Shown piece by piece: positions 584-21,294 of a stretch of 35,334 nucleotides of DNA (positions are counted from its first letter, which is position 1; each line of letters starts with the position of its first letter). The translations under genes were made by a program, and so were the position numbers. The stretch comes from a virus (Duplodnaviria > Heunggongvirae > Uroviricota > Caudoviricetes). The stretch spans positions 1-35,334 of the IMG/VR virus record IMGVR_UViG_2778261179_000021. The stretch is one strand, 5' to 3'. The notes beneath the pieces are model-generated. The model searched no databases. It saw only the letters and a program-made list of their open reading frames with translations, and had not been told where the DNA came from.

Positions 584-1363
584 TTACTCTGCGTCTACCA
601 TGTCACATGCAAATTGAGTGTGTTTATATTCAGAATCAAATTTTGGTTCAATTACTTCAAGACGCATGTCACCTTTTTTGCTTACCCAGATGTTATAAGT
701 GTTAACACGTCCAATAGCATCCTGTTTGGATTTACCTTCCATTGCGTTTGGATTCTCTTTAGATGGCTTGAGACTTGATTTATAAACATCATACTTGTCG
801 GAATACACAAAAGATACAGGAACATCGTCTACCATTTTGATCTTAAGTTTACCGCCGTTATTATCAAAAGTTTTGTTTCCGTAGAGTTTATCTTTTACAG
901 CTTCTGTTTCCTCACCATCGATAACTTTCCATGTAAATTTTGTAGTACATGCGTAAATCGCGGTAACATTCAGTTTCTTTACTTCTTCCTGTTTCGGTTG
1001 TTCTTCTTCAATCTTCGCAGAAGTCTCTGAATCGCTCTCTGACGCGGTTTCTTCTTTAGATAATACATTCATCAAGTTTTGGATTTGAGCGTTGTATACA
1101 GCCTCCAGTGGCTGAATCTGCCCGATATTGATCATTGTATCACGAACAGTTTTATTCCAGTTTCGTTGCTCTTGTTTCAGAGACGGATCAATCTTAACAG
1201 CCTTAACATATACTTCATGAAGTTTAGAATCCAGTGCGGAGATTGACTCATTAGCACAAATAAACTTCTCTGATTTGGTAGTGGCTTTAGCGCAATCAAA
1301 GGACGCAGCATCAGCACCGAAAGCAGTAGCAGAAAGAACGATAGCAGCGATAATGTTTTTCAT
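584..1363 (-). CDS. secreted protein with DUF1311/LprI-like N-terminal domain
   Basis: ATG at 1363 with AAGAGG RBS; N-terminal signal peptide MKNIIAAIVLSATAFGADA; FDCAKAT...FICANESISALDSKLHEVY...QEQRNWNK pattern resembles DUF1311 (lysozyme-inhibitor LprI N-domain). Confidence 0.6.
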   Translation of the reverse strand: MKNIIAAIVLSATAFGADAASFDCAKATTKSEKFICANESISALDSKLHEVYVKAVKIDPSLKQEQRNWNKTVRDTMINIGQIQPLEAVYNAQIQNLMNVLSKEETASESDSETSAKIEEEQPKQEEVKKLNVTAIYACTTKFTWKVIDGEETEAVKDKLYGNKTFDNNGGKLKIKMVDDVPVSFVYSDKYDVYKSSLKPSKENPNAMEGKSKQDAIGRVNTYNIWVSKKGDMRLEVIEPKFDSEYKHTQFACDMVDAE

Positions 1364-1721
1364 TTTATACCTCTTTTGGTATGGACTGACTTTTAGATGC
1401 TTACTTTATTGATTTTTGATATTTTTTCAATTATTGGGATGAGATTTAGTAATTAAATTAAGAAATTAATGCTTGACAAATTAAAAAGGTACTGTTCCAC
1501 GGATGAAATAAAGGGAGTTTTCGGCACCCCGGTATTTGATGTGCGTGTGAGATTCTAAAACGTGATCACTTCACTTATGGCGCGGTCGCTACGCGACTAT
1601 TAACCCACTTCCTAACCCTTACCATTACTGGATCTTTCCCTTCGTTAGAATGCGATTTAGGCGCTTAGATTGTGCGTAAAACCAATAAATAAAATTACGC
1701 AAATTTAATGGAGGATAACCA

Positions 1722-2276
1722 ATGAAAGAAGAATTAACCCTTACAGAAATTTCCCGTTTATATGGCTATACATTGAATGGTGGCGGTAAGCGATGGTTAG
1801 AAAGGGGATTGCCATTTAACACCAATACCCGCCGCGTGCCAGCCAAAGAAGGAACAGAATGGGTCTTGAAAAATATTATCAACCCGCTTAAACAAACTTC
1901 TATCAAAGAACAAATCGACGTAGAGAAATTACGCCGTGAACGTGCTTTGGCAGATGCAGCCGAACGAGAGAACCAGGAAAAAATGAATCTCCTGATTCCT
2001 GTCGGTTATGTAGAACAGGAACTAGCGGAATACTGCGGGAAAGTGAAACAGACTATTTTGCAGATTTGTACGATCGATGCCCTAGAAATTTTAGAATCCG
2101 CCACTGATCAGAAAACATTGAAGAATAAGCTAAGGGAGATCATCGAACGTCGTTTAAATGAAGTAGGGGACTTGTTCGAAAATGCAGATTTGGGAGAAGA
2201 CGAGGAAGAAGAATTAGCATTAATGGATGAACCGGAACAAGAACCAGAAGAAGACGATGAATTTGATGTGTCTTAA
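1722..2276 (+). CDS. putative small terminase subunit (Nu1-like winged-HTH protein) or DNA-binding regulator
   Basis: GGAGGA RBS; N-terminal HTH-like segment LTLTEISRLYGY...RWLERGLPF, then an EKLRRE-containing helical region and a very acidic C-terminus; by-eye resemblance to lambda Nu1 (G-M/L-P-V/F ... EKLRRE). Confidence 0.45.
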   Translation: MKEELTLTEISRLYGYTLNGGGKRWLERGLPFNTNTRRVPAKEGTEWVLKNIINPLKQTSIKEQIDVEKLRRERALADAAERENQEKMNLLIPVGYVEQELAEYCGKVKQTILQICTIDALEILESATDQKTLKNKLREIIERRLNEVGDLFENADLGEDEEEELALMDEPEQEPEEDDEFDVS

Positions 2277-2376
2277 ACATTAGATACTAAATATATACGT
2301 GAAGGATGTTGAGCTGGTCAACGTCTACGGGGGAGAACATCCCCCGCTAACCTTTTTCTTATTTGAGGATTTACCT

Positions 2377-2478
2377 ATGGTTGAATTTTTGATTTATCTG
2401 GCTGTAGGATTAACTATCGTATATTCACTTGCTCACATTGGCATTTCTACTGTGTGTAACGCTTTCAAGTATCATTAA
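2377..2478 (+). CDS. small hydrophobic membrane peptide (33 aa)
   Basis: GAGGA RBS 7 nt upstream of ATG; translation MVEFLIYLAVGLTIVYSLAHIGISTVCNAFKYH is a single predicted TM helix; not in the ORF track because shorter than 60 aa. Confidence 0.35.
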   Translation: MVEFLIYLAVGLTIVYSLAHIGISTVCNAFKYH

Positions 2479-2531
2479 TTAAATCGATGAATTGAACTAT
2501 AGATGATGGTCATTTTCAAAGAGGATTATCT

Positions 2532-2705
2532 ATGGATCTTTTTGTCTACTTTGCTACTCTGCTGTTTTTGACTATCGTCGCTGGCATTAAATTGATTTTT
2601 ATATCGCTGGTGGTGTTTTTCAAATTTCTAATCGGTACGCCTTACGGCTGGGTATGCTTAATCCAGTTTATTCTTTTTAGTTGCTGTAAAAAGGATACTA
2701 AATAA
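2532..2705 (+). CDS. small membrane protein (57 aa, two hydrophobic segments)
   Basis: AAAGAGGA RBS upstream of ATG at 2532; strongly hydrophobic translation MDLFVYFATLLFLTIVAGIKLIFISLVVFFKFLIG...; followed by two plus-strand terminators. Confidence 0.4.
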   Translation: MDLFVYFATLLFLTIVAGIKLIFISLVVFFKFLIGTPYGWVCLIQFILFSCCKKDTK

Positions 2706-2863
2706 TAGTGTAATCTGCCTTTTCTCCTTATGGTTATTAACAGGGGATCTTCTTTGAGGATTCCCGATTAAAAGCCATAAAACACACTCCAGTACAGTGT
2801 TTTCATAGTCAGTGATCTATACAACACAAAAACATAACAAGTATAGATTGAGTATTAATCCTC

Positions 2864-2887
2864 CCGCCCTTCGGGGCGGTTATTTTT
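2864..2887 (+). terminator. intrinsic terminator (CCGCCC-TTCG-GGGCGG hairpin plus T-run)
   Basis: Perfect 6-bp GC stem with TTCG tetraloop followed by TTATTTTT. Confidence 0.6.
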
Positions 2888-2963
2888 CTGGCTTTAAAGA
2901 ATAATGTAGCATTATGTTCATTATAACCTCATCTTTGTTGTGCAAACCTAACCTAAACTTACT

Positions 2964-2990
2964 AGGGACTCTTCGGAGTCCCTTTTTTAT
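2964..2990 (+). terminator. intrinsic terminator (AGGGACTC-TTCG-GAGTCCCT plus T6)
   Basis: 8-bp stem, TTCG loop, TTTTTT run; abuts the stop codon of the convergent minus-strand gene. Confidence 0.65.
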
Positions 2991-3928
2991 TGGCAGTAAG
3001 AAAAGTTAGTACCGTACATTTCATCATGAAGCATTGCAGCATTGCGTTTCTGTTCTTCTTCCTCGTCTACCGCATCACTAGAAAAATGAGATTTGCCCTT
3101 AAAAGAACGAAGCAATTGCAGTGCAGCCATCGGATCACGCATCACATCGATTTTCACTTCTACTTCATCATTTGCGGCCTCATCAGCCGCATTTTCAACT
3201 ACTGCCACCGGAGCAACTTCTTTAGCTTTCAGTTCTTCAATTTCAGCTTTCTGGGCTTCGATAATCTGGTCTTTTTCTTCCAGTGCAGCTTTCAGTTCTG
3301 CGATCTGTGCTTCCAGTGCAGCAAAGCGATCTTCTACAACAGGAGAAACAGCATTAACCTGTGCTTCCAGTTCCAGAAATGCTTCGCAAGATTCAATACG
3401 TTCTTTCTCTTCACCTTCATAAGCAACCAGTTCTACAACTTCTTTTTCGGTAGCGTGGCTGTTAAAGAATACAGCAAAGTAAGGATTGCCGGATTTAGTG
3501 AAGTTCAGTTTAGCTTTTCCGGTAACTTCTTTACGACGACCGAAGGTGATCTGGCAATCAGCGGTATCCTGAAAATCCATGTTAGGAGCGGAAACGATAG
3601 CAGTATCACCAGCAATCACCAGGTGGAACAGTTCAGAAGAGTTCTTAACGGTAAAGGTAACGATGTGGTCTACTGCAACGTCTTTAGCAGGTTTAACGCG
3701 GTCGATTGCTTTACGAATGCCGTTAGGCAGTTTACCGTCAACACCAAAGCCAGCCGCGATCAGTGCTTCACGATGTGCTTTAAAGCCAGCGAAAGCGGAT
3801 TTCTGCTGCGCAAAGGAAACATGAGCAACAACTTTCGGCTGAATCTTCTTGTTTGCTTCGGTGCCAAATTTGATAACTGCTTTAGCGTTGGTTACTTCGT
3901 TAGTGAAAAAGTTAGCGGAAAATAACAT
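2987..3928 (-). CDS. hypothetical protein with central coiled coil and acidic C-terminal region (313 aa)
   Basis: ATG at 3928 with GGAG RBS; long ORF; heptad-like region ...FAALEAQIAELKAALEEKDQIIEAQKAEIEELKAKE...; second gene of a leftward operon downstream of LexA-like boxes. Confidence 0.7.
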   Translation of the reverse strand: MLFSANFFTNEVTNAKAVIKFGTEANKKIQPKVVAHVSFAQQKSAFAGFKAHREALIAAGFGVDGKLPNGIRKAIDRVKPAKDVAVDHIVTFTVKNSSELFHLVIAGDTAIVSAPNMDFQDTADCQITFGRRKEVTGKAKLNFTKSGNPYFAVFFNSHATEKEVVELVAYEGEEKERIESCEAFLELEAQVNAVSPVVEDRFAALEAQIAELKAALEEKDQIIEAQKAEIEELKAKEVAPVAVVENAADEAANDEVEVKIDVMRDPMAALQLLRSFKGKSHFSSDAVDEEEEQKRNAAMLHDEMYGTNFSYCQ

Positions 3929-12406: not shown

Positions 12407-14410
12407 ATGCTTAAATTTCGCCGCGATCTTAACGGTTACGGTGGGGTTATTAATGAAGGGCATAACGATCAATACGAATTTGAAATTGCTTTCTCAAGTA
12501 CACAGCCTTATCAGCGCCAATTTTGGGATGAGCAAAATCAAGAAATGGTGGTATTAGATGAAATTCTGGTACATACACCGGAAGCGGTTGATCTGTCTCG
12601 TCTGAATAATAACGCTCCGTTGCTGTTCAATCACAATTTCGATAATCACATTGGTGTCGTTTGTAACGCTCGAATCGATGCGGATAACGTAGGTCGTGCT
12701 CTGGTTAAATTCTCCAAGCATGGGACTATGGCTAATGATATTCGTAACAAAGTCATTGAAGGTACGATGGAAAAAATATCGGTCGGCTATGACATTAAAG
12801 AGTATCACATCGATTACGCCAAAGGGCAATTGATTGTTACTAAGTGGGCACCCTATGAACTCTCATTTGTCACCGTTCCCGCAGACGATACGGTCGGTTT
12901 AAATCGCTCTCTAAATACTATCACAGTTAATTTGGAGGCTAAACGCGATATGACTAAAGAACAAATTGAAGAAATCAAAGAAGAACAAGAATCCGCTCAG
13001 GTTGAAGAAACTCCGGTAGAAGAAAATAAAGAATCGGAAGTAGAAGAAACTCAAGAGCGCCAAGTTGAAGAGAATAAAGAAGATGAAAATCTCGAAGACG
13101 GAAAAGACGCTGAACATCCTGAAAGTGTTGATGATGATAGTTCAACTGTTCGGGAAGCAGAAGAAGTAAAAGAAGAACGTGAAGCCGCTCCGGTTGAAGA
13201 AGAAAAAATCGAAGAAGTGGCTGAACGTTCCGAAGAAGACGAATTAGAAATTCGCGAGATCGCTCGCGAGCTAAATATTAACGACGAAGAATTAGAACGC
13301 GCATTGGCAGTTAAAGATATGACGCCGGAAGCATTCCGCACTAAGGCACTAAATAACATTACCAATGCTCAACGTATTAACGAACAACAAATTAAGGACT
13401 CTAAAATGGAAAAAACTTTTGACCTGAACAACGTAATTCGCTCTCTGGTAGATGGTGAAGCTCTGGGTGCTAACGAAGCCGAGTTTTCTGCAATGGCTGC
13501 TACTGCAACTATGCAGCGTGGTCGTGCTGCTCGCGGTGGCTCTGTATTCGTTCCGACTGCTGCTATGCGTGCTGCTGCTGATGGTAACACCAAAGCTACT
13601 CTGACCGCTGTAACCGACGAAAAACTGCTGAATGATTCCTATGTAGCGATGCTGATGCCGGAATCCGTTCTGGGTCGTCTGGGTGTGAAAGTCCTGTCTG
13701 GTCTGACTTCTCCGACTGCTATTCCGAAAATGACCGCTTCCAGCGTTGAATCTTTCGGCTTCGTTGATGAAAACGGTGCTGCACCGGAAGGTAAAGCTGA
13801 ATTTGCAAACGTGAAAATGGCTCCGAAAACTTTTGCTGGTGGCAACCCGATCAGCCGTCAGTCTCTGAAAACCGTTCCGGGCATCGCTACCCTGATCACT
13901 GATCACATTAACCAAGCTGTTCGTGTCAAACTGGAACAACTGATTCTGTCTGATAAAGAAAATGCTCGTGGTCCGGCTGGTGTGATTAAGCAACTGGTTG
14001 ATGCAAGCCGTGTTGAGAAGAAAGCTGCTTTCTCTTACAAAGACTTCCTGAAAGAAATTGCTAAACTGACCGACGCTGGCGTTCCTGCTCAGGCGATCAA
14101 GTTTGCGATGAGCGGTGCAACTGCTGCTGAACTGGAATCTACCCTGAAAGATAACGGTGTTTCCGGTTATATCATCGAAAACGGTAAACTGGCTGGTTAC
14201 GACGTAGTTACTTCTGGTGTTATTCCGGTAGACCACATCGTTCTGGGTGACTTCTCCGCTATTACCATCGGTGAATGGGGCGGTCTGGAACTGGACATTG
14301 ACGACACTACCTACCGCGCACAGTCCGCAATTGTTCCGCGTATCTGGGTAGATCTGGATTATGTAGTTACCCAGCCGGAAGCTCTGAAAGTTCTTCACGT
14401 CTCTGAATGA
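12407..14410 (+). CDS. fused prohead protease (HK97/S78-like) - acidic scaffold-like linker - major capsid protein
   Basis: 667 aa; N-terminal domain ends with the protease-family signature ...YELSFVTVPADD; about 130 residues of E/K-rich low-complexity linker; C-terminal about 330 aa consistent with an HK97-fold capsid protein; ends in TGA. Confidence 0.8.
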   Translation: MLKFRRDLNGYGGVINEGHNDQYEFEIAFSSTQPYQRQFWDEQNQEMVVLDEILVHTPEAVDLSRLNNNAPLLFNHNFDNHIGVVCNARIDADNVGRALVKFSKHGTMANDIRNKVIEGTMEKISVGYDIKEYHIDYAKGQLIVTKWAPYELSFVTVPADDTVGLNRSLNTITVNLEAKRDMTKEQIEEIKEEQESAQVEETPVEENKESEVEETQERQVEENKEDENLEDGKDAEHPESVDDDSSTVREAEEVKEEREAAPVEEEKIEEVAERSEEDELEIREIARELNINDEELERALAVKDMTPEAFRTKALNNITNAQRINEQQIKDSKMEKTFDLNNVIRSLVDGEALGANEAEFSAMAATATMQRGRAARGGSVFVPTAAMRAAADGNTKATLTAVTDEKLLNDSYVAMLMPESVLGRLGVKVLSGLTSPTAIPKMTASSVESFGFVDENGAAPEGKAEFANVKMAPKTFAGGNPISRQSLKTVPGIATLITDHINQAVRVKLEQLILSDKENARGPAGVIKQLVDASRVEKKAAFSYKDFLKEIAKLTDAGVPAQAIKFAMSGATAAELESTLKDNGVSGYIIENGKLAGYDVVTSGVIPVDHIVLGDFSAITIGEWGGLELDIDDTTYRAQSAIVPRIWVDLDYVVTQPEALKVLHVSE

Positions 14411-14547: not shown

Positions 14548-14575
14548 AGCCCTGCCTAACGGTGGGGCTTTTTTG
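14548..14575 (+). terminator. intrinsic terminator after capsid gene and extension
   Basis: AGCCCTGCC-TAAC-GGTGGGGCT hairpin followed by TTTTTT. Confidence 0.7.
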
Positions 14576-14895: not shown

Positions 14896-15301
14896 TAATA
14901 TGCCTAGACTGAAAATCAAACGCGCCTTGCAGGATATTATCGAACAAGATTTAGGTCTGGCTTTAAACGTAGAACAAACTCAGCAAGGCTTTAGTGATGA
15001 TGTGGTTTGTTGGATTACCGGAATGAATGAGACTTACAATAGGGTCCGTGGTGGTAATGCAATGCAAGCTGAATGCGTTATCGAAATGCAGTTGTATTCT
15101 CAGAATCATGAAACCAAAATTCATGAGGGTATTTGCCAGATAATCCAGATTCAGCCGGATAATCCACGTTTTAAAGATTTGGGCTTCTCTATTTCAGATA
15201 TCACTCCAGTAGCTTCTAATACCGATTATGACGATGATTCTAGTGATGGGGGTATCGTTGGGACACTTAGCCTTAAATTTTCTTATCTAGCGCGTTTTTA
15301 A
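14879..15301 (+). CDS. putative neck / tail completion protein
   Basis: Track ORF 14798..15301; preferred start ATG 14879 with AGGGGG RBS, overlapping the upstream stop (ATGCTCGCTACCGTTAA); function inferred from position. Confidence 0.45.
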   Translation: MLATVNNMPRLKIKRALQDIIEQDLGLALNVEQTQQGFSDDVVCWITGMNETYNRVRGGNAMQAECVIEMQLYSQNHETKIHEGICQIIQIQPDNPRFKDLGFSISDITPVASNTDYDDDSSDGGIVGTLSLKFSYLARF

Positions 15302-15310
15302 GGGGTAATA

Positions 15311-16144
15311 ATGAATATTACACAAGATAACTTAGATATTTTCACTGGATCACATGTTGAAGTGTCGATCTCTAACCAGATAGACAATCAGGTCGACTTT
15401 TTCGATCCTAGCTTTAGTTCTATGGAGAACATCGCAGCATTCCCTACGCTAACCGAATCCACAGAGATAGAAACTCTGGAAGAGTACGATCAGGACGCTA
15501 CGGGGAAACTTGCTGGTTATCGTAGACTGGAACCGACAACACTCACATTAAACCGTGTTCTTGACGATGAACATCAAGCAATGTTGATGAAAGCGGTAGA
15601 GGATAAAACACCTTTACGCTTCCGTATGTTCTATGTTGTGAACTCTGGCTATAGTGCTGCTAACACAGGGTACTTTTGTATATTCGATGCTTACGTCACA
15701 TCACATAAAACCCGTGGTAGTGATAACAAAGCTGTAACACTGGAATTTAAACTTGAACCAGATGGCGGGATTCTGGCAAGGGGTATTGCTACCGAAGGCC
15801 GGATCTTACGTCAGGGTGATTTTGGTTTGGGTGCTGGTGTAAATCCATTCACGGGTCCAATTGATAGCGAGGCATTAGCCGGAAACCGTTTCGTAACTTA
15901 CAAGGGAACTGCTAGCGGTAATCCATATTCAACCGACACAGCATTAATTCACCTTCAAGCCAATGAGCATGGCGCATGGCAATTAACCTGTAATACTTCC
16001 GGCGCACCACGTTTACGCGTCCGAAATATTCAGGAAAACGGACGCTCTGAATGGATCAAGGTATATTCCACCAATGAGAAACCGACACCTAGCGAAATTG
16101 GCGCAGTAGCTAAGACTGACCGGATCGATTTCGGGGAGTATTGA
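15311..16144 (+). CDS. virion structural protein (possible tail terminator or tail-tube-like protein with C-terminal beta-rich domain)
   Basis: AAGGGG RBS; 277 aa ORF within the late operon; function from position and composition only. Confidence 0.5.
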   Translation: MNITQDNLDIFTGSHVEVSISNQIDNQVDFFDPSFSSMENIAAFPTLTESTEIETLEEYDQDATGKLAGYRRLEPTTLTLNRVLDDEHQAMLMKAVEDKTPLRFRMFYVVNSGYSAANTGYFCIFDAYVTSHKTRGSDNKAVTLEFKLEPDGGILARGIATEGRILRQGDFGLGAGVNPFTGPIDSEALAGNRFVTYKGTASGNPYSTDTALIHLQANEHGAWQLTCNTSGAPRLRVRNIQENGRSEWIKVYSTNEKPTPSEIGAVAKTDRIDFGEY

Positions 16145-16219
16145 TTCACTTCCTAAATAAAACATGAACGTTGGGAGGTTAACGCCTCCCTTATTCCTGT
16201 TTTATAGTGAGGTGATTCG

Positions 16220-19200
16220 ATGCAGTCGATCCAATTTAAACGCACACAGACGGCTGGTAAAAAACCAACGCCGGAACAATTATCACAGGGTGAGATCGCC
16301 TTACAACTGGCGGACCATGTGATTTACACCAAAGACAAAAATAATAATGTAGTTCAAATTAGTGTTTCTCCAGAAAAACACGCTGAACTGAATACGAAAG
16401 TAGACAATAACAAAACTAGCACTGACCGTGTTATTGCAGCAAATAAGAAAGAAGCTGCTGATAATCTGGCTAGTGCTAAAGCTGAACTTAATCAGACTAT
16501 CACTTCTACCCGTGATACCCTCAATGCTTCAATCACTGCTGGCGATACCGCAGCCAACAAACGAATTGATGCTTTGACTACCACAGTAGGTAACAATAAA
16601 ACCGAAGCGGCTAACGCTCTGGCGGCTGCTAAGACTGAACTGAATCAGACTATTACTTCAACCCGCGATACTATCAACGCGACAATTAACAAGAACAAGA
16701 CAGATATTAATGCGCGAGTTGATCAGACGAATACCAACGTTACCAACTTAACGAATACTGTCGCAGCAAATAAATCAGCAATAGAAAAGACGGTAGCGGA
16801 TAATAAGAAAGATGCGGACACGAAGATCACCAATCTTACTAGTACGGTCTCTGCGAATAAGACAGCCATTGAAAGAACTGTTGCAAATAACAAGGCCAGT
16901 GCCGATGCCGCAATTGCCGCAGCTAATCAGCGAATTGATTCGATTGAAGGTAGTGCCGATGCTGCTTACATCAAGAAGAATACCAACACTTACCATCACG
17001 GGTATTTGTTAAGCAAGACCGCTAACTATTTTGATGATGCTGGCGCACGTAACCTTGATTATTTTGGTGCGTTTCGTCCGAACAATGCCGAAGGTTGGGG
17101 TAACTTAATCCTTAACATTCCTCATTCTGGCGGTAAAGCCCACGGTCGCGGTTTTGAGTTCCACTATGGGTCTAGCTCATCTCAAGTTAAAACCTATGGC
17201 TTTGATAAAGATGGTAATAAGCGATTCAGCTACCGCATGTATCATGAAGGTGATAAGCCGACTCCTACTGAATTGGGTGTGTATAGTAAAGCCGAAGTTG
17301 ATCAGATGTTCACTAAACCCGTTCATATGTCAACTGGTGAAAATGCGGCTGGTTACTTTAAACTGGCAACGGCAACAATTCCACAAGGGGGTCGAGGCTT
17401 TTTCATCCGTATTTTCGGTGGAAATGGTTATAACGTTAATAGTCCTGATCAGTGTGATATTGTAGAAATTGTTATCCGTTCCGGTAATGGAAATCCGAAA
17501 GGTGTAAACGTTGTTGCTTATCGTCGTAATACTAATAACGAGTTTGAAACCTTTGCGGTTAATACTTCGGGTGATAACTATGATATCTATGTGAAATATC
17601 GCAAATACACCGATAAAGTTACTGTAGAGTACGGTAAAAGTGCTGATGTGACTTTAAATGTGTATGATACACCTGAATTAACTCTCGTTAAGCCGTCTAC
17701 TGGTGTTAACGAAGGTCGTGTTATTACCTTGTTTAATACTGAAAATAAACGCGGTACTCTGTCCTTTGATAATAACTCACAAGCAACTTACGATATTGTG
17801 AGTTTGAGCGCCGCACAGGACCGTAACAAAAAATATCTGCGTAAATTCCGTAGTCAAGCGGTAGAGACCATCTGGCATGAAGTTGTTAACGGTAGTTCAT
17901 ATCGTTTAGCTACTGGTGTTACCGATTCTACTGATGTTTTTCAGATTGATTCTACTGGCTCTGTTGCTGGTCCATATAAAGGCAACGTGACTACTGGACG
18001 TATGGAATTAAACGGTGGTAGTAATGCATTAACTTTGCGTCGTCCTGCTGGACAATCTAACCATATTACATTCCAAGATAACCGTAGTGGTAATATTACC
18101 CGTCAAGGCTGGATCGGTTATGGTGACGCTGATACTAACGCATTGCAGATATATAGCGATGTAGGAAGTAACAAATTTGCATTAGAAACTAACGGTCAGA
18201 TCTCTCTGAATGTTGGCGCAACAAAAATTGTTTACTCTAACGGACAATATTATTCCGCTAACTCAGATGCATTCCGTATGATTTACGGTAATTACGGTGC
18301 ATTCTGGCGTAATGATGGCACTAAAGTATATTTGTTATCTACTGCTGAAAATGATCGTTTTGGTGGCTGGAACGGCAACCGTCCGTTCATTTACGATTTA
18401 ACTAACGGTAAAGTTACTTTAGGTGGTGATGGTAACGAAGGTGCATTAGTTCTTGAAAGAGATAGCCGTGCTGCTCGCTTTAGTAATAACGTATTCTTAG
18501 AGAAAGGTTTGCTTACGTTCTCTGCTGGTGGAAATCAGTCGATGGATTCTTTCACGATTAACCATTGGGGGAATAGTAATGCCGATCGATATAACGTTTT
18601 GCAATTCCAGGACACTAGCGGAACTCACTTTACCACTGAACGTAACGGATCTGGCGGTTTGCTTGCTCATTTCCGAGGGGATTTAACTACCGAAGGAAAA
18701 TTAACGTGGGGTAAGGGTACAGCTACTTCTAGTTTCAATATTCGTGCATGGGGCGCTGATGCTCGTAAACAAGTATTTGAATGTGCTGATGAAAGCGGTT
18801 GGCATTGGTATACCCAACGTCCGGGCGGTCCGGGTACTACGGCAATTGAGTTTGCTATCAACGGTACTGTTAAGCCTCAAGCAATTCACACTGGCGGCAA
18901 TATTCTTTTGAACGGTGCTGATATTGAATTTCGTCGCACTGGTAATAAGCATATCTGGTTTAGAGATCCAACTGGATTAGAACTAGGTTTGATGTATTCC
19001 GATGATGCTGGTGTTATTCGCTTCCGTGGTCAGAAACAAGCCCAGACGTGGAAACTTGCGGATAAGATGATCCAGTTGGAATCTGGTACTGTAACCGGAG
19101 GCGGTAATGGCCTGATTCGTGGTGAAGTTGCTGGCGGTAGTTGGGCTAGCTGGCGTGACCGTGCTGCTGGCCTTATGGTTGGGTGTCCTCGATCAACCGA

Positions 19201-19738
19201 TTCCGCTCATAACATCTGGAAAGCGACACATTGGGGTAAATATCACATTGCAGCAATGGGTGTGCATGTTCCTAGTGGTACTATCGGTAACGCTCTTGTG
19301 CGTCTCCATGTTCATGATACTAACTTTGACTTTAACGCTGCTGGTGATTTTACCGCAGGTCGCAACGGTAGCTTTAACGATGTTTACATTCGCTCTGACT
19401 CTCGTCTGAAAATTAACAAGGAAGAATTACAGGACGGCGCATTAGAGAAAGTAAACTCCCTGAAAGTCTACACCTACGATAAAGTTAAATCTCTTTCCGA
19501 TGACACAGTGATTAAACGCGAAGTAGGCATTATTGCTCAGGATCTGGAAAAAGTATTGCCGGAAGCGGTAGGTATTCAATCCACAGAAGATCCAGAACAT
19601 CCAGAAGCAATCAAGACTATTTCTAACTCTGCTGTCAATGCTTTAATCATCAAGGCTATGCAGGAAATGGACGCCAAATATAAAGCGCAGATCGAAGCAT
19701 TACATAAAGAGATTGCCGAACTGAAAGCAACTAAATAA
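16220..19738 (+). CDS. long tail fibre with C-terminal intramolecular chaperone (peptidase S74-like) domain
   Basis: 1172 aa; N-terminal about 51-aa tandem repeats (…AKAELNQTITSTRDT…); C-terminal about 115 aa …IRSDSRLKINKEEL…VGIIAQDLEKVLPEAV…NALIIKAMQEMDAKYKAQIEALHKEIAELK match the self-cleaving chaperone domain of endosialidase/T5-type L-shaped fibres. Confidence 0.8.
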   Translation: MQSIQFKRTQTAGKKPTPEQLSQGEIALQLADHVIYTKDKNNNVVQISVSPEKHAELNTKVDNNKTSTDRVIAANKKEAADNLASAKAELNQTITSTRDTLNASITAGDTAANKRIDALTTTVGNNKTEAANALAAAKTELNQTITSTRDTINATINKNKTDINARVDQTNTNVTNLTNTVAANKSAIEKTVADNKKDADTKITNLTSTVSANKTAIERTVANNKASADAAIAAANQRIDSIEGSADAAYIKKNTNTYHHGYLLSKTANYFDDAGARNLDYFGAFRPNNAEGWGNLILNIPHSGGKAHGRGFEFHYGSSSSQVKTYGFDKDGNKRFSYRMYHEGDKPTPTELGVYSKAEVDQMFTKPVHMSTGENAAGYFKLATATIPQGGRGFFIRIFGGNGYNVNSPDQCDIVEIVIRSGNGNPKGVNVVAYRRNTNNEFETFAVNTSGDNYDIYVKYRKYTDKVTVEYGKSADVTLNVYDTPELTLVKPSTGVNEGRVITLFNTENKRGTLSFDNNSQATYDIVSLSAAQDRNKKYLRKFRSQAVETIWHEVVNGSSYRLATGVTDSTDVFQIDSTGSVAGPYKGNVTTGRMELNGGSNALTLRRPAGQSNHITFQDNRSGNITRQGWIGYGDADTNALQIYSDVGSNKFALETNGQISLNVGATKIVYSNGQYYSANSDAFRMIYGNYGAFWRNDGTKVYLLSTAENDRFGGWNGNRPFIYDLTNGKVTLGGDGNEGALVLERDSRAARFSNNVFLEKGLLTFSAGGNQSMDSFTINHWGNSNADRYNVLQFQDTSGTHFTTERNGSGGLLAHFRGDLTTEGKLTWGKGTATSSFNIRAWGADARKQVFECADESGWHWYTQRPGGPGTTAIEFAINGTVKPQAIHTGGNILLNGADIEFRRTGNKHIWFRDPTGLELGLMYSDDAGVIRFRGQKQAQTWKLADKMIQLESGTVTGGGNGLIRGEVAGGSWASWRDRAAGLMVGCPRSTDSAHNIWKATHWGKYHIAAMGVHVPSGTIGNALVRLHVHDTNFDFNAAGDFTAGRNGSFNDVYIRSDSRLKINKEELQDGALEKVNSLKVYTYDKVKSLSDDTVIKREVGIIAQDLEKVLPEAVGIQSTEDPEHPEAIKTISNSAVNALIIKAMQEMDAKYKAQIEALHKEIAELKATK
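16430..16930 (+). repeat. in-frame tandem repeats (about 153-nt unit) within the tail fibre shaft
   Basis: For example GCTAAAGCTGAACTTAATCAGACTATCACTTC at about 16475 versus GCTAAGACTGAACTGAATCAGACTATTACTTC at about 16628. Confidence 0.6.
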
Positions 19739-19794
19739 TAAAAGTCGGGGGACTAGTTCCCCCGTAATAACAATTTTAATTAAGGGGTAATTCT

Positions 19795-20268
19795 ATGTCT
19801 CAGCAATTTAAAGATATTTTTACTGGTGGTCTGGTAAGTCTGTTCTATCACGCCGACACCACTAATACCGCTCTCGACCACGAAAGCTACGAAGAAATTA
19901 AAGAGTGTGCTGGTTTTCCTGAAACTGGTATCGAGCGCGGTACTGTAGAAGTTAAATCCTTCTCTTCTCAGTATAACCGTAAACTGGTAGGTAAACTGAA
20001 CGTTCCTGATCTGACTCTGACCGTTAACTACATCCCAGGTGATGCGGTACATGAAAAACTGATCAAAGCTGCCGAAGACGGTACTCGTATTCAGATTAAA
20101 GTAGAATATTACGTTGACGCAGCAAAACAGACTGGTATTCGCACCGCTTTCAACGGCTTCATTTCTAAAGTTGCTATGAACGGTGGCGATGAAGAAGTTG
20201 TAACCAAAGAGTTTACCTTCGCGGTGGATGGTGCTCCGCTGAAACAGCAAATCTTCACTGCCGGATGA
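19795..20268 (+). CDS. putative major tail (tube) protein
   Basis: AAGGGG RBS; 157 aa; sits in the V position upstream of G/GT and tape measure; ends in TGA followed by the same extension module as the capsid gene. Confidence 0.5.
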   Translation: MSQQFKDIFTGGLVSLFYHADTTNTALDHESYEEIKECAGFPETGIERGTVEVKSFSSQYNRKLVGKLNVPDLTLTVNYIPGDAVHEKLIKAAEDGTRIQIKVEYYVDAAKQTGIRTAFNGFISKVAMNGGDEEVVTKEFTFAVDGAPLKQQIFTAG

Positions 20269-20388
20269 ACTAACGAAGAACTTCCCGAACCGGAACCACA
20301 GCCGGAACATGAAGCGGTGGTGATTCCAGAAGTAGAAGAAGTTACGGCGAAAGCCACAGCTAAACGAAGCCGCAAGGCTAAAGATTAA
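20269..20388 (+). other. in-frame 39-codon extension downstream of the major tail TGA stop (candidate readthrough product)
   Basis: Open in the tail-gene frame to TAA at 20386..20388; encodes TNEELPEPEPQPEHEAVVIPEVEEVTAKATAKRSRKAKD, sharing EEV-TAKAT-K--RK-K with the capsid extension. Confidence 0.5.
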
Positions 20389-20393
20389 TTATA

Positions 20394-20422
20394 AGCCCTG
20401 CCTTAATGGTGGGGCTTTTTTA
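20394..20422 (+). terminator. intrinsic terminator after major tail gene and extension
   Basis: AGCCCTGCC-TTAAT-GGTGGGGCT hairpin followed by TTTTTT; near-identical to the terminator at 14548..14575. Confidence 0.7.
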
Positions 20423-20436
20423 TTGGAGTAATCAAA

Positions 20437-20943
20437 ATGGCGAATGTCGTTAATAAGCCTGGCTGGGTCGGGTCATCTGCTGTTTCTGTAACTGGTCAAC
20501 GATGGATGAGCGCAGCAATGAACGCATTAAAGGTTAGTCGCCCAGCTAACATGAGTGCGATGTGTGGTCGTGGTATGGATACGGTTGTAGCTACTGCTGC
20601 GTGGTCTACTTCATTGGGTAATAACTGGGGTGTAACTGCTTCAAACTATCCAGTAACTGACATGCGCGGTAAAGGATCTATGGAGAACCCCGAAAACGTG
20701 GGCGTAGGGCGTCTGATTGGCGTTATCGTTGGTCAATTCAATGGCGGTACTCCTACTATGGCTGTATATCTCCAGAACGGTAGAGCGGGGAATATAACCG
20801 TTAATTTGGGTGGTGCTGCTGTCACTGTTCTTTATAACAGTATGCAAAGTGGTTTTCATTACTATTGGTTAAGCAATCCTCCGGCTGCTTTCCTTACCAA
20901 CATTAAGAAGACTGGCACTAAGCAGACTTTGAAAATCTCTTAA
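20437..20943 (+). CDS. hypothetical virion-associated protein (beta-rich, 168 aa)
   Basis: GGAG RBS; ORF between the major tail gene and the G chaperone; no recognisable motif. Confidence 0.45.
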   Translation: MANVVNKPGWVGSSAVSVTGQRWMSAAMNALKVSRPANMSAMCGRGMDTVVATAAWSTSLGNNWGVTASNYPVTDMRGKGSMENPENVGVGRLIGVIVGQFNGGTPTMAVYLQNGRAGNITVNLGGAAVTVLYNSMQSGFHYYWLSNPPAAFLTNIKKTGTKQTLKIS

Positions 20944-20985
20944 ATTCTAAATAAACATATCGAATTAACTTAAGAGGAAACAAGA

Positions 20986-21294
20986 ATGAATATTAATGAA
21001 ATGCTGAAAGCTCTTTCTCCGAAACGTGAATCTCTGACCATCGGCGGATTCACGTTCTATGCTCGCCCTATGTCAGTAAAAGAATTTAACGAACATGTTT
21101 TCAATACTGATAAAGAAGACCGTGATGAACGTTCGATTCTTCGTTGTATTGAAGATGAAGACGGTAAACCGGTATTTGAATCTATGGAACAAGTTAAGGC
21201 ACTGTATACTAACGTCCGCAGTGAATTAATCGGTTTGGTTGCTCAAGCATCATTGATGCAAGATCCGGCAGTAATTGAAAACGAGGTAAAGTAA
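20986..21294 (+). CDS. tail assembly chaperone G
   Basis: AAGAGGA RBS; 102 aa immediately upstream of an overlapping -1 frame ORF and the tape measure gene (canonical G/GT arrangement). Confidence 0.6.
   Translation: MNINEMLKALSPKRESLTIGGFTFYARPMSVKEFNEHVFNTDKEDRDERSILRCIEDEDGKPVFESMEQVKALYTNVRSELIGLVAQASLMQDPAVIENEVK
21286..21294 (+). other. candidate -1 programmed frameshift site (GUA AAG UAA) generating a G-T fusion
   Basis: The T frame (-1 relative to G) is open from 21279; A-AAG immediately before the G stop codon allows tRNA-Lys to re-pair on AAA in the -1 frame. Confidence 0.45.

What the first reader, a model, noticed from the sequence alone, without database searches (positions are those of the whole stretch)
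16220..19738. Tail fibre combining N-terminal 51-aa tandem repeats with a C-terminal self-cleaving chaperone domain
The C-terminal about 115 residues carry the hallmark motifs of the intramolecular chaperone (peptidase S74) domain (…SDSRLKINKEEL…GIIAQDLEKVLPEAV…), predicting autoproteolytic release after trimerisation; the receptor-binding tip would be the region just upstream (about residues 900-1050). The N-terminal shaft has near-identical 153-nt repeats that could drive length variation by recombination.
Basis: partly seen in the sequence, partly recalled or inferred. Interest (0 to 1): 0.4.

Follow-up and report, generated by a model that had tools for sequence, protein, structure and literature searches.

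The report
Prophage T-even-type tail fibre, self-cleaving end
This gene encodes a side tail fibre of an E. coli prophage that is a full-length relative of the long-tail-fibre tip protein (gp37) of RB49-like T-even phages. It carries the known self-cleaving C-terminal chaperone and probably works with a small cap protein encoded two genes downstream, so it is an ordinary kind of fibre in an unusual setting.

Summary
The ORF (16220..19738, +, 1172 aa) is real. Its C-terminus is a Peptidase_S74 intramolecular chaperone (Pfam E=8e-14; profile against solved S74 chains down to E=2e-23). Ser1059 and Lys1064 sit at the catalytic positions, so cleavage is predicted between Arg1058 and Ser1059.

The "near-identical 153-nt repeats" are overstated. 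There are two diverged copies (62% nt identity over 153 nt, 30/51 aa) and Tandem Repeats Finder reports nothing. They lie in a proline-free segment (aa 52-245) whose hydrophobic period of 3.63 suggests a coiled coil.

The fibre is colinear with RB49 gp37: aa 262-1169 are 66% identical and aa 1-51 are 37% identical. Published work says RB49-type gp37 is cleaved and then capped by a gp38 adhesin. The window encodes a short Gp38_N protein at 20437..20943, so the receptor-binding element is more likely this cap than fibre residues 900-1050.

The upstream gene (15311..16144) is a tail-tube paralogue with a fibre module resembling the C-terminus of RB49 gp36. It may be the fibre's socket on a lambda-like tail.

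The kind is known and the context is new. Interest is modest.

The parts
16220..19738 (+). Side tail fibre gene, 1172 aa (127.8 kDa precursor)
   Evidence: ORF list. PHROG 1699 long tail fiber distal subunit, E=1e-135. 100% identical NCBI protein. Mass.
16220..16372 (+). N-terminal domain, aa 1-51. Inferred docking end of the fibre, equivalent to the N-terminus of RB49 gp37.
   Evidence: 37% identical to RB49 gp37 aa 4-54. Conserved at the start of the fibre gene that follows the tube paralogue in Salmonella, Proteus, a metagenome and the DCP80 record. 98-99% conserved among the 120 closest homologues. The docking role is inference.
16373..16954 (+). Segment aa 52-245, absent from RB49 gp37. 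Probably an alpha-helical coiled-coil rod.
   Evidence: No proline and 3 glycines in 194 aa. Hydrophobic periodicity peaks at 3.63 residues (power 100.6; shuffles 51 +/- 11, maximum 115). Weak Pfam Filament and Apolipoprotein matches. RB49 gp37 aligns only to aa 1-51 and 262-1169.
16439..16744 (+). Two copies of the 51-aa (153-nt) repeat, aa 74-124 and 125-175
   Evidence: 30/51 aa identical. 62% nt identity over 153 nt, 76% over 92 nt. Longest exact run 11 nt. No Tandem Repeats Finder array.
16745..16918 (+). Two copies of a 29-aa repeat, aa 176-204 and 205-233
   Evidence: 19/29 aa identical, 61% nt. One homologue (P0054, 1145 aa) lacks exactly one 29-aa unit.
17003..19393 (+). gp37-like shaft and tip, aa 262-1058 (the mature distal part)
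   Evidence: Together with the chaperone, aa 262-1169 align to RB49 gp37 aa 71-977 at 66% identity with 7 gaps in 911 columns. 71-82% nt identity to Krischvirus gene 37.
18155..18394 (+). Gp34_trimer-type fibre domain, aa 646-725
   Evidence: Pfam PF21446, E=4.7e-25. PDB T4 gp34 chains 4UXE/5NXF, E about 1e-15.
19394..19738 (+). Peptidase S74 intramolecular chaperone, aa 1059-1172 (12.7 kDa fragment predicted to be released). Ser1059 codon 19394-19396, Lys1064 codon 19409-19411. Predicted scissile bond Arg1058|Ser1059.
   Evidence: Pfam E=8e-14. Ser and Lys invariant in 18 diverse S74 tails. Profile matches to solved S74 chains; the released GA-1 domain 3GUD_A starts at the equivalent Ser. MyRF is cut immediately before the equivalent Ser587 (PMC8326128). 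Cleavage itself is not shown here.
20437..20943 (+). Short gp38-like protein, 168 aa. Inferred cap or adhesin for the cleaved fibre end.
   Evidence: Pfam Gp38_N aa 4-42, E=1.9e-15. PHROG 1121 'tail fiber adhesin', E=1.7e-33. PDB 6F45_D (S16 gp38), E=2e-4. aa 9-48 are 73% identical to JSE gp38. Present in all 14 E. coli genomes that match the fibre 3' end.
15311..16144 (+). Tail-tube paralogue (aa 1-163) fused to a fibre module (aa ~180-277) resembling the C-terminus of RB49 gp36. Inferred socket for the fibre.
   Evidence: 30% identical to the window's 157-aa tube protein, E=1e-14. AlphaFold2 pLDDT 68, Foldseek top match lambda tube 8K36_A, E=1.3e-7. hhalign of the family against the RB49 gp36-position protein: probability 87.6%, E=3.5e-6, both alignments ending at the C-terminus. 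Relatives carry Pfam Phage_T4_gp36.
19795..20268 (+). Tail tube protein, 157 aa, lying between the fibre gene and the gp38-like gene
   Evidence: PHROG 158, E=3e-21. Pfam Phage_TTP_11/12, just below their cut-offs.
20393..20417 (+). Terminator-like hairpin between the tube gene and the gp38-like gene
   Evidence: 10-bp stem with 6 G-C pairs followed by a T run. Nearly the same sequence as the hairpin after the capsid gene at 14548-14569. Function not tested.

Best explanation
The gene encodes the side tail fibre of a temperate, lambda-like (non-contractile-tail) E. coli prophage. The fibre is a complete RB49-type gp37, the distal long-tail-fibre subunit of T-even-like phages, with about 200 extra residues (aa 52-261) after the N-terminal domain; aa 52-245 of these look like a coiled coil.

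Proposed mechanism:
1. Three chains associate through the C-terminal S74 intramolecular chaperone (aa 1059-1172), which templates folding of the trimeric beta-helical tip.
2. Once the trimer is formed, the Ser1059/Lys1064 dyad cuts each chain between Arg1058 and Ser1059. This releases a 12.7-kDa fragment and leaves a 1058-aa (115-kDa) mature fibre.
3. The newly exposed end is then capped by one copy of the 168-aa Gp38_N protein encoded at 20437..20943. The non-homologous C-terminal ~120 residues of that protein, rather than fibre residues 900-1050, would make the main receptor contact.
4. At the other end, the conserved N-terminal 51 residues dock onto the gp36-like C-terminal module of the tail-tube paralogue encoded just upstream (15311..16144), which would place the fibre on the tail tube.

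Shown here: the homologies, the catalytic residues, the gene order and the co-occurrence. Inferred: cleavage, capping, the receptor role of the cap and the attachment site.
For: - S74 domain with catalytic residues. The cut position follows from 3GUD_A starting at the equivalent Ser and from MyRF being cleaved between P586 and S587, with S587 and K592 equivalent to endoNF S911 and K916 (PMC8326128).
- Colinear homology to RB49 gp37: 66% identity over aa 262-1169 and 37% over aa 1-51. RB49 gp37 has the same Pfam pair, Gp34_trimer plus Peptidase_S74.
- Literature: RB49 and most T-even-like gp37 carry a self-cleaving chaperone, and after its removal one gp38 monomer attaches and binds the receptor (PMC9569957). 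T2 and T6 gp37 is cleaved and then capped (PMC3157838). The S16 structure 6F45 shows the gp38 N-terminal bundle docking on the gp37 base (PMC6851490).
- Both partners of 6F45 are the best PDB matches of the two window proteins: fibre tail to 6F45_A and the 168-aa protein to 6F45_D.
- Gp38_N Pfam E=1.9e-15, and 73% identity to the N-terminus of Krischvirus JSE gp38. This matches the Krischvirus-like fibre tip.
- Co-occurrence: all 14 complete E. coli genomes that match the fibre 3' end also carry the gp38-like gene, and about 0.7 kb separates the two in the pairs checked. Gene order is the same in L003 and L004.
- Independent recurrence: Stx phage 75/02 has an S74-ended fibre (...NGSFNDVQIR|SDKRNK) immediately followed by a 45%-identical short gp38-like protein.
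- Related Salmonella and Proteus prophages, whose fibres have a more diverged tip (Salmonella) or no detected S74 end (Proteus), show no match to the gp38-like protein among the genes around the fibre.
- Anchor.
Against: - No experiment or multimer model links any of these proteins.
- The AlphaFold2 monomer of aa 923-1172 was unusable (pLDDT 38), so the S74 fold is supported by sequence only.
- The 168-aa protein lacks the polyglycine-sandwich receptor domain (Pfam GP38, PF05268) of T2-, S16- and RB49-type gp38.
- That protein is also more conserved among prophages (89.6-99.4% nt) than the fibre 3' end (84-93% nt). This is unusual for a specificity determinant. Fibre residues 931-990 are the most variable part of the distal end.
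- The gp38-like gene is separated from the fibre gene by the tube gene and a terminator-like hairpin.
- The Salmonella relative has an S74-ended gp37-like fibre, and none of the genes tested beside it matches the gp38-like protein.
- The gp36-like match of the upstream protein is modest (31% identity; hhalign probability 87.6%). It rests partly on the widespread 'KPTP..(I/L)G' fibre motif, and tblastn against all phage records did not recover Krischvirus gp36 at E<=0.01.
Confidence: 0.7

Rival explanations
1. T5-like reading, which is the first reader's. After the chaperone is released, the fibre's own distal end (about aa 900-1058) binds the receptor directly. The 168-aa Gp38_N protein is then not the adhesin: it could be an assembly factor, a remnant, or serve another fibre.
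For: - The distal fibre segment aa 931-990 is the most variable part of the C-terminal third among close homologues.
- The fibre 3' end is more diverged between prophages than the gp38-like gene.
- The 168-aa protein lacks the canonical GP38 receptor domain.
- A Salmonella relative has an S74-ended fibre, and none of the neighbouring genes tested matches the gp38-like protein.
- S74-ended fibres that bind receptors directly are known, for example the T5 lateral tail fibre (discussed in PMC11990801).
Against: - aa 991-1058, immediately before the cut, are 93-99% conserved, and the whole distal end is highly similar to RB49 gp37. In RB49 the receptor is read by gp38 (PMC9569957).
- Gp38_N is a dedicated gp37-docking domain (PMC6851490). 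Here it is 73% identical to the Krischvirus one.
- The gp38-like gene is found with this fibre in every E. coli genome checked.
- The same pairing recurs in Stx phage 75/02.
Confidence: 0.2
2. The fibre is a non-functional or uncleaved relic in a defective prophage. The S74 domain is retained in the protein, or the gene is not expressed.
For: Nothing here shows expression, induction or cleavage. One relative carries an IS5-family element within the matched stretch (H64).
Against: - The ORF is intact, and more than 120 full-length homologues at 83-100% identity keep the Ser and Lys.
- The complete head-tail module is intact in the window.
- The backbone is conserved across E. coli, Shigella, Salmonella, Proteus, Edwardsiella and Providencia. 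This argues for purifying selection.
Confidence: 0.07
3. The 277-aa upstream protein is simply the major tail tube protein with a decoration domain, like the Ig-like C-terminal domain of lambda gpV. The fibre would then attach elsewhere, for example at the tail tip.
For: The Foldseek matches include full-length lambda gpV, which also has a C-terminal extra domain. The gp36-like similarity is weak.
Against: - A second, minimal tube gene (157 aa) occupies the canonical position before the tail chaperone genes. It is followed by a terminator-like hairpin like the one after the capsid gene.
- The closest relatives of the 277-aa protein's C-terminal module continue after it into fibres of up to about 1200 aa.
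- A gene with the conserved fibre N-terminus always follows the paralogue directly.
Confidence: 0.3

Closest known systems
gp37 of RB49-like phages (Krischvirus; Straboviridae), with its displaced gp38 adhesin
   Same: - Colinear over almost the whole protein: 66% aa identity over 908 residues and 71-82% nt identity.
- Same Pfam pair, Gp34_trimer plus Peptidase_S74.
- Same sequence around the cut, NGSFNDVYIR|SD(S/A)RLKINKEE.
- The partner protein has a Gp38_N domain 73% identical.
- In both, the gp38 gene is not adjacent to gene 37 (PMC3157838).
   Different: - The host virus is a temperate lambda-like siphovirus prophage, not a T4-like myovirus.
- About 200 residues (aa 52-261) are inserted after the N-terminal domain.
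- The gp38-like partner is 168 aa and lacks the GP38 polyglycine domain.
- No gp34 or gp35 is present. The gp36-like element is fused to a tail-tube paralogue.
Salmonella phage S16 gp37-gp38 adhesin tip (PDB 6F45) and T2/T6 gp37/gp38
   Same: Best solved-structure matches for both window proteins: 6F45_A at E=2e-23 with the profile, and 6F45_D at E=2e-4. The logic is the same: chaperone cleavage, then a monomeric cap on a trimeric end (PMC6851490, PMC3157838).
   Different: - Sequence identity to S16 is low outside the S74 and Gp38_N parts.
- Aligned against the conserved Trp-bearing helices of S16 gp38, the third Trp position is Met in the window protein (aligned residue Tyr in JSE).
- The receptor-binding domain of the cap is unrelated.
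Phage T5 L-shaped (lateral) tail fibre pb1
   Same: A side fibre of a siphovirus that ends in an S74 intramolecular chaperone which is removed after trimerisation. This rests on my own knowledge of Garcia-Doval et al. 2015; the T5 chaperone domain is also mentioned in PMC11990801.
   Different: - In T5 the receptor-binding tip is part of the fibre itself and no gp38-type cap is known.
- No T5 pb1 chain appeared among the PDB sequence matches.
- T5 fibres attach through a collar, not through a tube paralogue.
Endosialidase (endoNF, K1F) C-terminal chaperone and the MyRF ICA domain (MEROPS/Pfam S74)
   Same: Ser-x4-Lys dyad at the start of the domain, the G-x-IAQ(D/E) motif and a C-terminal helix. 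MyRF 7DC3_A matches the profile at E=1e-12 (PMC8326128).
   Different: The cargo is a fibre shaft rather than a sialidase or a transcription factor. No enzymatic domain was detected in the fibre.
Lambda side tail fibre Stf with its assembly protein Tfa
   Same: A lambda-like tail carrying a side fibre that shares ancestry with T-even gp37. This is classic fibre-gene mosaicism, cited from my own knowledge.
   Different: - Stf uses a separate T4-gp38-type chaperone (Tfa), not an S74 domain plus a T2-type cap.
- stf lies downstream of J, whereas here the fibre gene sits between a tube paralogue and the tube gene.

Membership tests
Peptidase S74 / intramolecular chaperone of endosialidase (Pfam PF13884) | Significant match to the family model above its curated threshold | tested here: met
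   aa 1059-1117, E=8e-14, 52.1 bits against a cut-off of 22, model positions 1-57 of 58.
Peptidase S74 / intramolecular chaperone of endosialidase (Pfam PF13884) | Catalytic Ser and a Lys five residues later at the start of the domain (endoNF S911/K916, MyRF S587/K592) | tested here: met
   S1059-D-S-R-L-K1064. Both are invariant in 18 diverse S74 tails and in 37 close homologues. Equivalence comes from the alignments and from PMC8326128.
Peptidase S74 / intramolecular chaperone of endosialidase (Pfam PF13884) | Located at the extreme C-terminus of a trimeric fibre or spike and ending in a helix that can form a triple coiled coil | tested here: met
   The domain is the last 114 residues of a fibre protein. 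The profile aligns through the terminal helix of 6F45_A and MyRF. The low-confidence model also has a long terminal helix at aa 1136-1171.
Peptidase S74 / intramolecular chaperone of endosialidase (Pfam PF13884) | Three-dimensional fold like solved S74 domains | tested here: inconclusive
   The AlphaFold2 monomer of aa 923-1172 with a shallow 37-sequence alignment had mean pLDDT 38.
Peptidase S74 / intramolecular chaperone of endosialidase (Pfam PF13884) | Autoproteolytic release after trimerisation | not testable with these tools
   Needs SDS-PAGE or mass spectrometry of the expressed protein or of virions.
RB49-type gp37 (T-even long tail fibre distal subunit with chaperone) | Colinear homology over shaft, tip and chaperone | tested here: met
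   aa 262-1169 align to RB49 gp37 aa 71-977 at 66% identity with 7 gaps. PHROG 1699, E=1e-135.
RB49-type gp37 (T-even long tail fibre distal subunit with chaperone) | N-terminal domain equivalent to that of RB49 gp37 (the end taken to join gp36) | tested here: met
   aa 1-51 align to RB49 aa 4-54 at 37% identity, pairwise E=4e-9.
RB49-type gp37 (T-even long tail fibre distal subunit with chaperone) | Encoded in a T4-like long-tail-fibre locus (genes 34-35-36-37) of a contractile-tailed phage | tested here: not met
   The neighbours are a lambda-like tube protein, G/T-type chaperones, a tape measure protein and a J-like tip protein. The rest of the window has no DNA match to T4-like phages apart from one short segment.
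T2/S16-type gp38 adhesin (for ORF 20437..20943) | N-terminal gp37-attachment domain (Pfam Gp38_N, PF21721) | tested here: met
   aa 4-42, E=1.9e-15, 57 bits against a cut-off of 25. 73% identical to JSE gp38. 6F45_D at E=2e-4.
T2/S16-type gp38 adhesin (for ORF 20437..20943) | C-terminal glycine-rich (polyglycine sandwich) receptor domain (Pfam GP38, PF05268) | tested here: not met
   There is no PF05268 match and no glycine-rich motifs appear in the alignment with JSE gp38. JSE gp38 matches PF05268 at E=1e-72. The window protein belongs instead to PHROG 1121, together with a Stx-phage 'tail fiber adhesine'.
Siphovirus tail tube protein (for ORF 15311..16144, N-terminal part) | Tail-tube fold and homology to the phage's own tube protein | tested here: met
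   30% identity to the 157-aa tube protein, E=1e-14. Foldseek against lambda gpV tube 8K36_A: E=1.3e-7, target-normalised TM-score 0.60. BFVD matches are tube proteins.
T4 gp36-type fibre connector (for ORF 15311..16144, C-terminal part) | Homology to the C-terminal end of gp36, the end taken to join gp37 | tested here: inconclusive
   - Against the RB49 gp36-position protein: pairwise 31% identity, E=1e-5; hhalign probability 87.6%, E=3.5e-6, both ending at the C-terminus.
- No Pfam match in the protein itself.
- Two relatives carry Phage_T4_gp36 further along the protein.
- tblastn against all phage records did not recover Krischvirus gp36.

The most novel reading that the evidence does not exclude
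A whole T-even distal half-fibre (gp36 C-terminal connector, gp37 with its self-cleaving chaperone, and a gp38-type cap) has been transplanted onto a lambda-like non-contractile tail. The adaptor would be a duplicated tail tube protein that carries the gp36-like connector, so that one or more tube rings act as sockets for side fibres. The fibre cassette between the tube paralogue and the true tube gene would be swapped freely across Enterobacterales prophages. The cap would be a previously uncharacterised short class of gp38 adhesin, shared with Stx phages.
Probability: 0.35. Interest if true: 0.55.

Novelty: new variant of a known kind. Interest (0 to 1): 0.33.

Why it matters
The fibre and its chaperone are ordinary on their own. 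Self-cleaving S74 ends are common, and T-even and lambdoid fibre genes are known to exchange.

Three things are useful here:
- The receptor-binding element of this widespread E. coli/Shigella prophage family is probably a separate 168-aa cap, not the fibre end. This matters for anyone predicting host range or engineering these fibres.
- The locus suggests a concrete and testable way of mounting a T-even fibre on a siphovirus tail, through a tail-tube paralogue.
- The short Gp38_N proteins, also present in Stx phages, are an uncharacterised adhesin class.

Tried and rejected
- Tandem Repeats Finder on 15000-21000 found no array.
- AlphaFold2 of fibre aa 923-1172 with 37 close homologues gave pLDDT 38 and was unusable. 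I substituted a profile search against solved chains.
- A direct PDB sequence search with the whole fibre found only gp34-type shaft domains. With the N-terminal 367 aa it found nothing meaningful. With the 277-aa protein it found nothing.
- The homologue search with the gp38-like protein returned only 7 proteins, too few for a structure prediction.
- Base composition shows no step at the fibre borders (GC 40-48% throughout), so it gives no signal of recent acquisition.
- DNA searches of the rest of the window against phage records found no close cultured relative. The nearest record, 'phage DCP80', shares 44% capsid identity and looks like a mixed record.
- A literature search for tube-paralogue fibre anchors found nothing relevant.
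- Rejected: recombination between the two 153-nt copies as a ready source of length variation. The longest exact shared run is 11 nt, and no homologue differs by 51 aa.

Full report
**1. The observation**

The ORF is exactly as stated: 16220..19738 on the + strand, ATG to TAA, 1172 aa. An identical protein is already in NCBI as an E. coli "tail fiber domain-containing protein". More than 120 homologues at 83-100% identity exist in E. coli, Shigella and E. marmotae assemblies, all with precomputed Pfam PF21446 and PF13884.

The quoted motifs are present. SDSRLK starts at aa 1059 and GIIAQDLEKVLPEAV at aa 1103. Pfam Peptidase_S74 matches aa 1059-1117 at E=8e-14, 52 bits against a cut-off of 22, covering the whole model.

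The repeats are real but overstated:
- The 51-aa period has two copies (aa 74-124 and 125-175) with 30/51 identical residues.
- Nucleotide identity is 62% over 153 nt and 76% over the best 92 nt. The longest shared exact run is 11 nt.
- Tandem Repeats Finder reports nothing.
- Periods of 29 aa and 11 aa also stand out against shuffles.

**2. What the repeats are**

Residues 52-245 have no proline and three glycines. Their hydrophobicity is periodic at 3.63 residues (power 100.6; shuffles 51 +/- 11, maximum 115). The periods 11, 29 and 51 aa correspond to 3, 8 and 14 helical turns at that pitch. I read the segment as a trimeric alpha-helical coiled-coil rod; this is an inference, since no structure was obtained.

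Among the 120 closest homologues the segment is 193 aa in 108 proteins. It is 164 aa (exactly one 29-aa unit fewer) in one, 218 aa in ten with a rearranged repeat pattern, and 190 aa in one. Length does vary in this region, but rarely, and never by a 51-aa unit.

**3. What the protein is**

At the DNA level, nucleotides ~800-3450 of the gene (aa ~270-1150) are 71-82% identical to gene 37 of Krischvirus phages (RB49, Phi1, JSE and relatives).

At the protein level the fibre is colinear with RB49 gp37 (979 aa). Residues 262-1169 align with RB49 71-977 at 66% identity with 7 gaps, and residues 1-51 align with RB49 4-54 at 37%. RB49 gp37 has the same Pfam pair. The fibre is therefore a complete RB49-type gp37 with about 200 extra residues (aa 52-261) between the N-terminal domain and the shaft.

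**4. The chaperone**

I built a profile from 18 diverse S74 tails: the window, RB49, and long fibre proteins that turned up. Ser, Asp, Arg and Lys of the S-D-x-R-x-K motif, and G, A and Q of the G-x-IAQ motif, are invariant in it.

The profile matches solved S74 chains:

| Chain | Protein | E-value |
|---|---|---|
| 6F45_A | S16 gp37 tip plus chaperone | 2e-23 |
| 7DC3_A | MyRF | 1e-12 |
| 8JOV_1 | putative tail fiber protein | 9e-10 |
| 3GUD_A | GA-1 neck appendage chaperone | 1.4e-4 |

The released GA-1 domain begins at the equivalent Ser. MyRF is cut between P586 and S587, and S587/K592 are equivalent to endoNF S911/K916 (PMC8326128).

By homology, cleavage here is predicted between Arg1058 and Ser1059. 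That gives a 115.2-kDa mature fibre and a 12.7-kDa fragment.

The AlphaFold2 monomer of aa 923-1172 had pLDDT 38, so the fold is supported by sequence profiles only.

**5. The surroundings change the interpretation**

The window is a lambda-like head-tail module: large terminase, portal, protease-capsid fusion, tube protein, G/T-type chaperones, tape measure protein and a J-like tip protein with a GpJ C-terminal receptor domain. It occurs as a chromosomal prophage in E. coli and has no close cultured relative.

Two genes downstream of the fibre, after the 157-aa tube gene, lies a 168-aa ORF (20437..20943):
- Pfam Gp38_N, aa 4-42, E=1.9e-15.
- PHROG 1121 "tail fiber adhesin", E=1.7e-33.
- Best PDB match 6F45_D, the S16 gp38 adhesin.
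- Residues 9-48 are 73% identical to Krischvirus JSE gp38. The rest is unrelated and lacks the glycine-rich GP38 domain.

The literature is explicit on how this type of fibre works. In RB49 and most T-even-like phages gp37 carries a self-cleaving chaperone, and after its removal one gp38 monomer attaches and its C-terminal domain recognises the receptor (PMC9569957). T2 and T6 gp37 is cleaved and then capped, and RB49's gene 38 is displaced from gene 37 (PMC3157838). In S16 the gp38 N-terminal helical bundle docks on the base of the gp37 beta-helix (PMC6851490).

Both halves of that interface are Krischvirus-like in the window. Further support:
- All 14 complete E. coli genomes that match the fibre 3' end also carry the gp38-like gene, as a single copy, and about 0.7 kb separates the two in the pairs checked (same gene order).
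- The unrelated Stx phage 75/02 has a collagen-like fibre ending in an S74 domain (...NGSFNDVQIR|SDKRNK), immediately followed by a 170-aa protein 45% identical to the window's.
- Related Salmonella and Proteus prophages have fibres with a more diverged tip (Salmonella) or no detected S74 end (Proteus), and show no match to the gp38-like protein among the genes around the fibre.

I therefore think the fibre end is a docking platform and the 168-aa protein is the cap and likely adhesin.

Caveats:
- The cap lacks the canonical receptor domain.
- It is more conserved between prophages (89.6-99.4% nt) than the fibre 3' end (84-93% nt).
- Fibre residues 931-990 are the most variable distal stretch.
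- The Salmonella relative has an S74 fibre without a recognisable cap.

A direct or additional receptor role for the fibre itself remains possible. I put that at about 0.2.

**6. How the fibre may be attached**

The gene immediately upstream (15311..16144, 277 aa) is a paralogue of the phage's own tube protein over aa 1-163 (30% identity, E=1e-14). Its model (pLDDT 68) matches lambda gpV tube structures (8K36_A, E=1.3e-7, target-normalised TM-score 0.60).

Its C-terminal ~100 residues resemble the C-terminal end of the RB49 protein in the gp36 position. The pairwise match is 31% identity at E=1e-5. The family profile gives hhalign probability 87.6%, E=3.5e-6. Both alignments run to the last residue...IDFGEY against ...IDFGTF.

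An exhaustive search with this module found 134 relatives. Most are long fibre proteins with several copies of the module. In the closest ones the module follows a tube-like N-terminus at about residues 160-275, and the protein continues to 342-1209 aa. Two of those carry Pfam Phage_T4_gp36.

Across the lineage (E. coli, Shigella, Salmonella, Proteus, Edwardsiella, Providencia, a metagenome and the DCP80 record) the order is conserved: capsid, two small genes, tube paralogue with fibre module, variable fibre cassette, tube, chaperones, tape measure. The gene after the paralogue always begins with the same N-terminal motif, M.SIQFKRT..G.KPT...GEIA. In Proteus that N-terminus plus the repeat segment is a separate 198-aa protein, followed by a gp37-like protein.

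This pattern fits a conserved socket (the paralogue's gp36-like end) and plug (the fibre N-terminus) with an exchangeable distal part. It is an inference. The gp36 similarity is modest and partly motif-driven, and a database-wide tblastn did not recover Krischvirus gp36.

**7. Comparison with what is known, and verdict**

The chaperone meets the sequence-level criteria of S74. Fold and cleavage remain untested.

The fibre meets the homology criteria of RB49-type gp37 but not its genomic and virion context. The cap meets the Gp38_N criterion but fails the GP38 receptor-domain criterion, so it is a short variant rather than a canonical gp38.

The closest functional analogues are the RB49/T2/S16 gp37-gp38 system and, for a siphovirus side fibre with an S74 end, T5 pb1.

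Overall this is a known kind of fibre in a new arrangement. The repeat description and the receptor-tip inference do not.

Noticed in passing
window 15311-16144 (+): A 277-aa protein with a tail-tube paralogue at aa 1-163 and a fibre-type module at aa ~180-277. The module resembles the C-terminus of RB49 gp36. The protein is conserved as a 'hypothetical protein' in prophages of E. coli, Shigella, Salmonella, Providencia, Edwardsiella and Proteus. In some relatives the same N-terminus continues into fibres of about 1200 aa.
   Followed up: yes
window 20437-20943 (+): A short (168 aa) Gp38_N protein without the glycine-rich GP38 domain. It is highly conserved (89.6-99.4% nt) in 19 of 5426 complete E. 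coli genomes. Stx phage 75/02 has a 45%-identical homologue directly after an S74-ended collagen-like fibre (L006 3415-5498). The fold and receptor of its C-terminal ~120 residues are unknown.
   Followed up: partly
window 14548-14569 and 20393-20417 (+): Two nearly identical terminator-like hairpins (AGCCCTGCCT...GGTGGGGCT followed by a T run). One follows the protease-capsid fusion gene and the other follows the 157-aa tube gene. They may be partial terminators that set high expression of the capsid and tube genes and lower expression of the gp38-like gene behind the second one.
   Followed up: no
window ~983-1363 (gene 584..1363, - strand, 259 aa): A second segment with about 80-86% nt identity to Krischvirus genomes, in their region between gene 37 and the holin gene t. 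It encodes a protein with a signal-peptide-like N-terminus (PHROG 14799, function unknown). The prophage thus shares two separate pieces with the same Krischvirus neighbourhood.
   Followed up: partly
L007 8882-11516 (Proteus mirabilis prophage): In the Proteus relative the fibre N-terminal domain plus repeat segment is a separate 198-aa protein. It is followed by a 675-aa gp37-like protein that has its own RB49-like N-terminus. This suggests the window's fibre is a fusion of two such pieces, or the Proteus arrangement is a split of one.
   Followed up: partly
L005 (PQ671644.1, 'Escherichia phage DCP80'): This record is labelled Gaprivervirus (Straboviridae) and is 141 kb. It nevertheless contains a head-tail module of the same siphovirus-like lineage as the window (capsid 44% identical; a tube-fibre fusion of 698 aa). 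It may be a chimeric or mis-assigned record.
   Followed up: no
window 12407-14410 (+): A protease-major capsid fusion protein (667 aa; Peptidase_S78 plus Phage_capsid in relatives). The nearest cultured relatives by protein are telomere-phage-like and Rhodobacter phages at about 28-30% identity, so this prophage lineage has no characterised isolate in the collection searched.
   Followed up: partly
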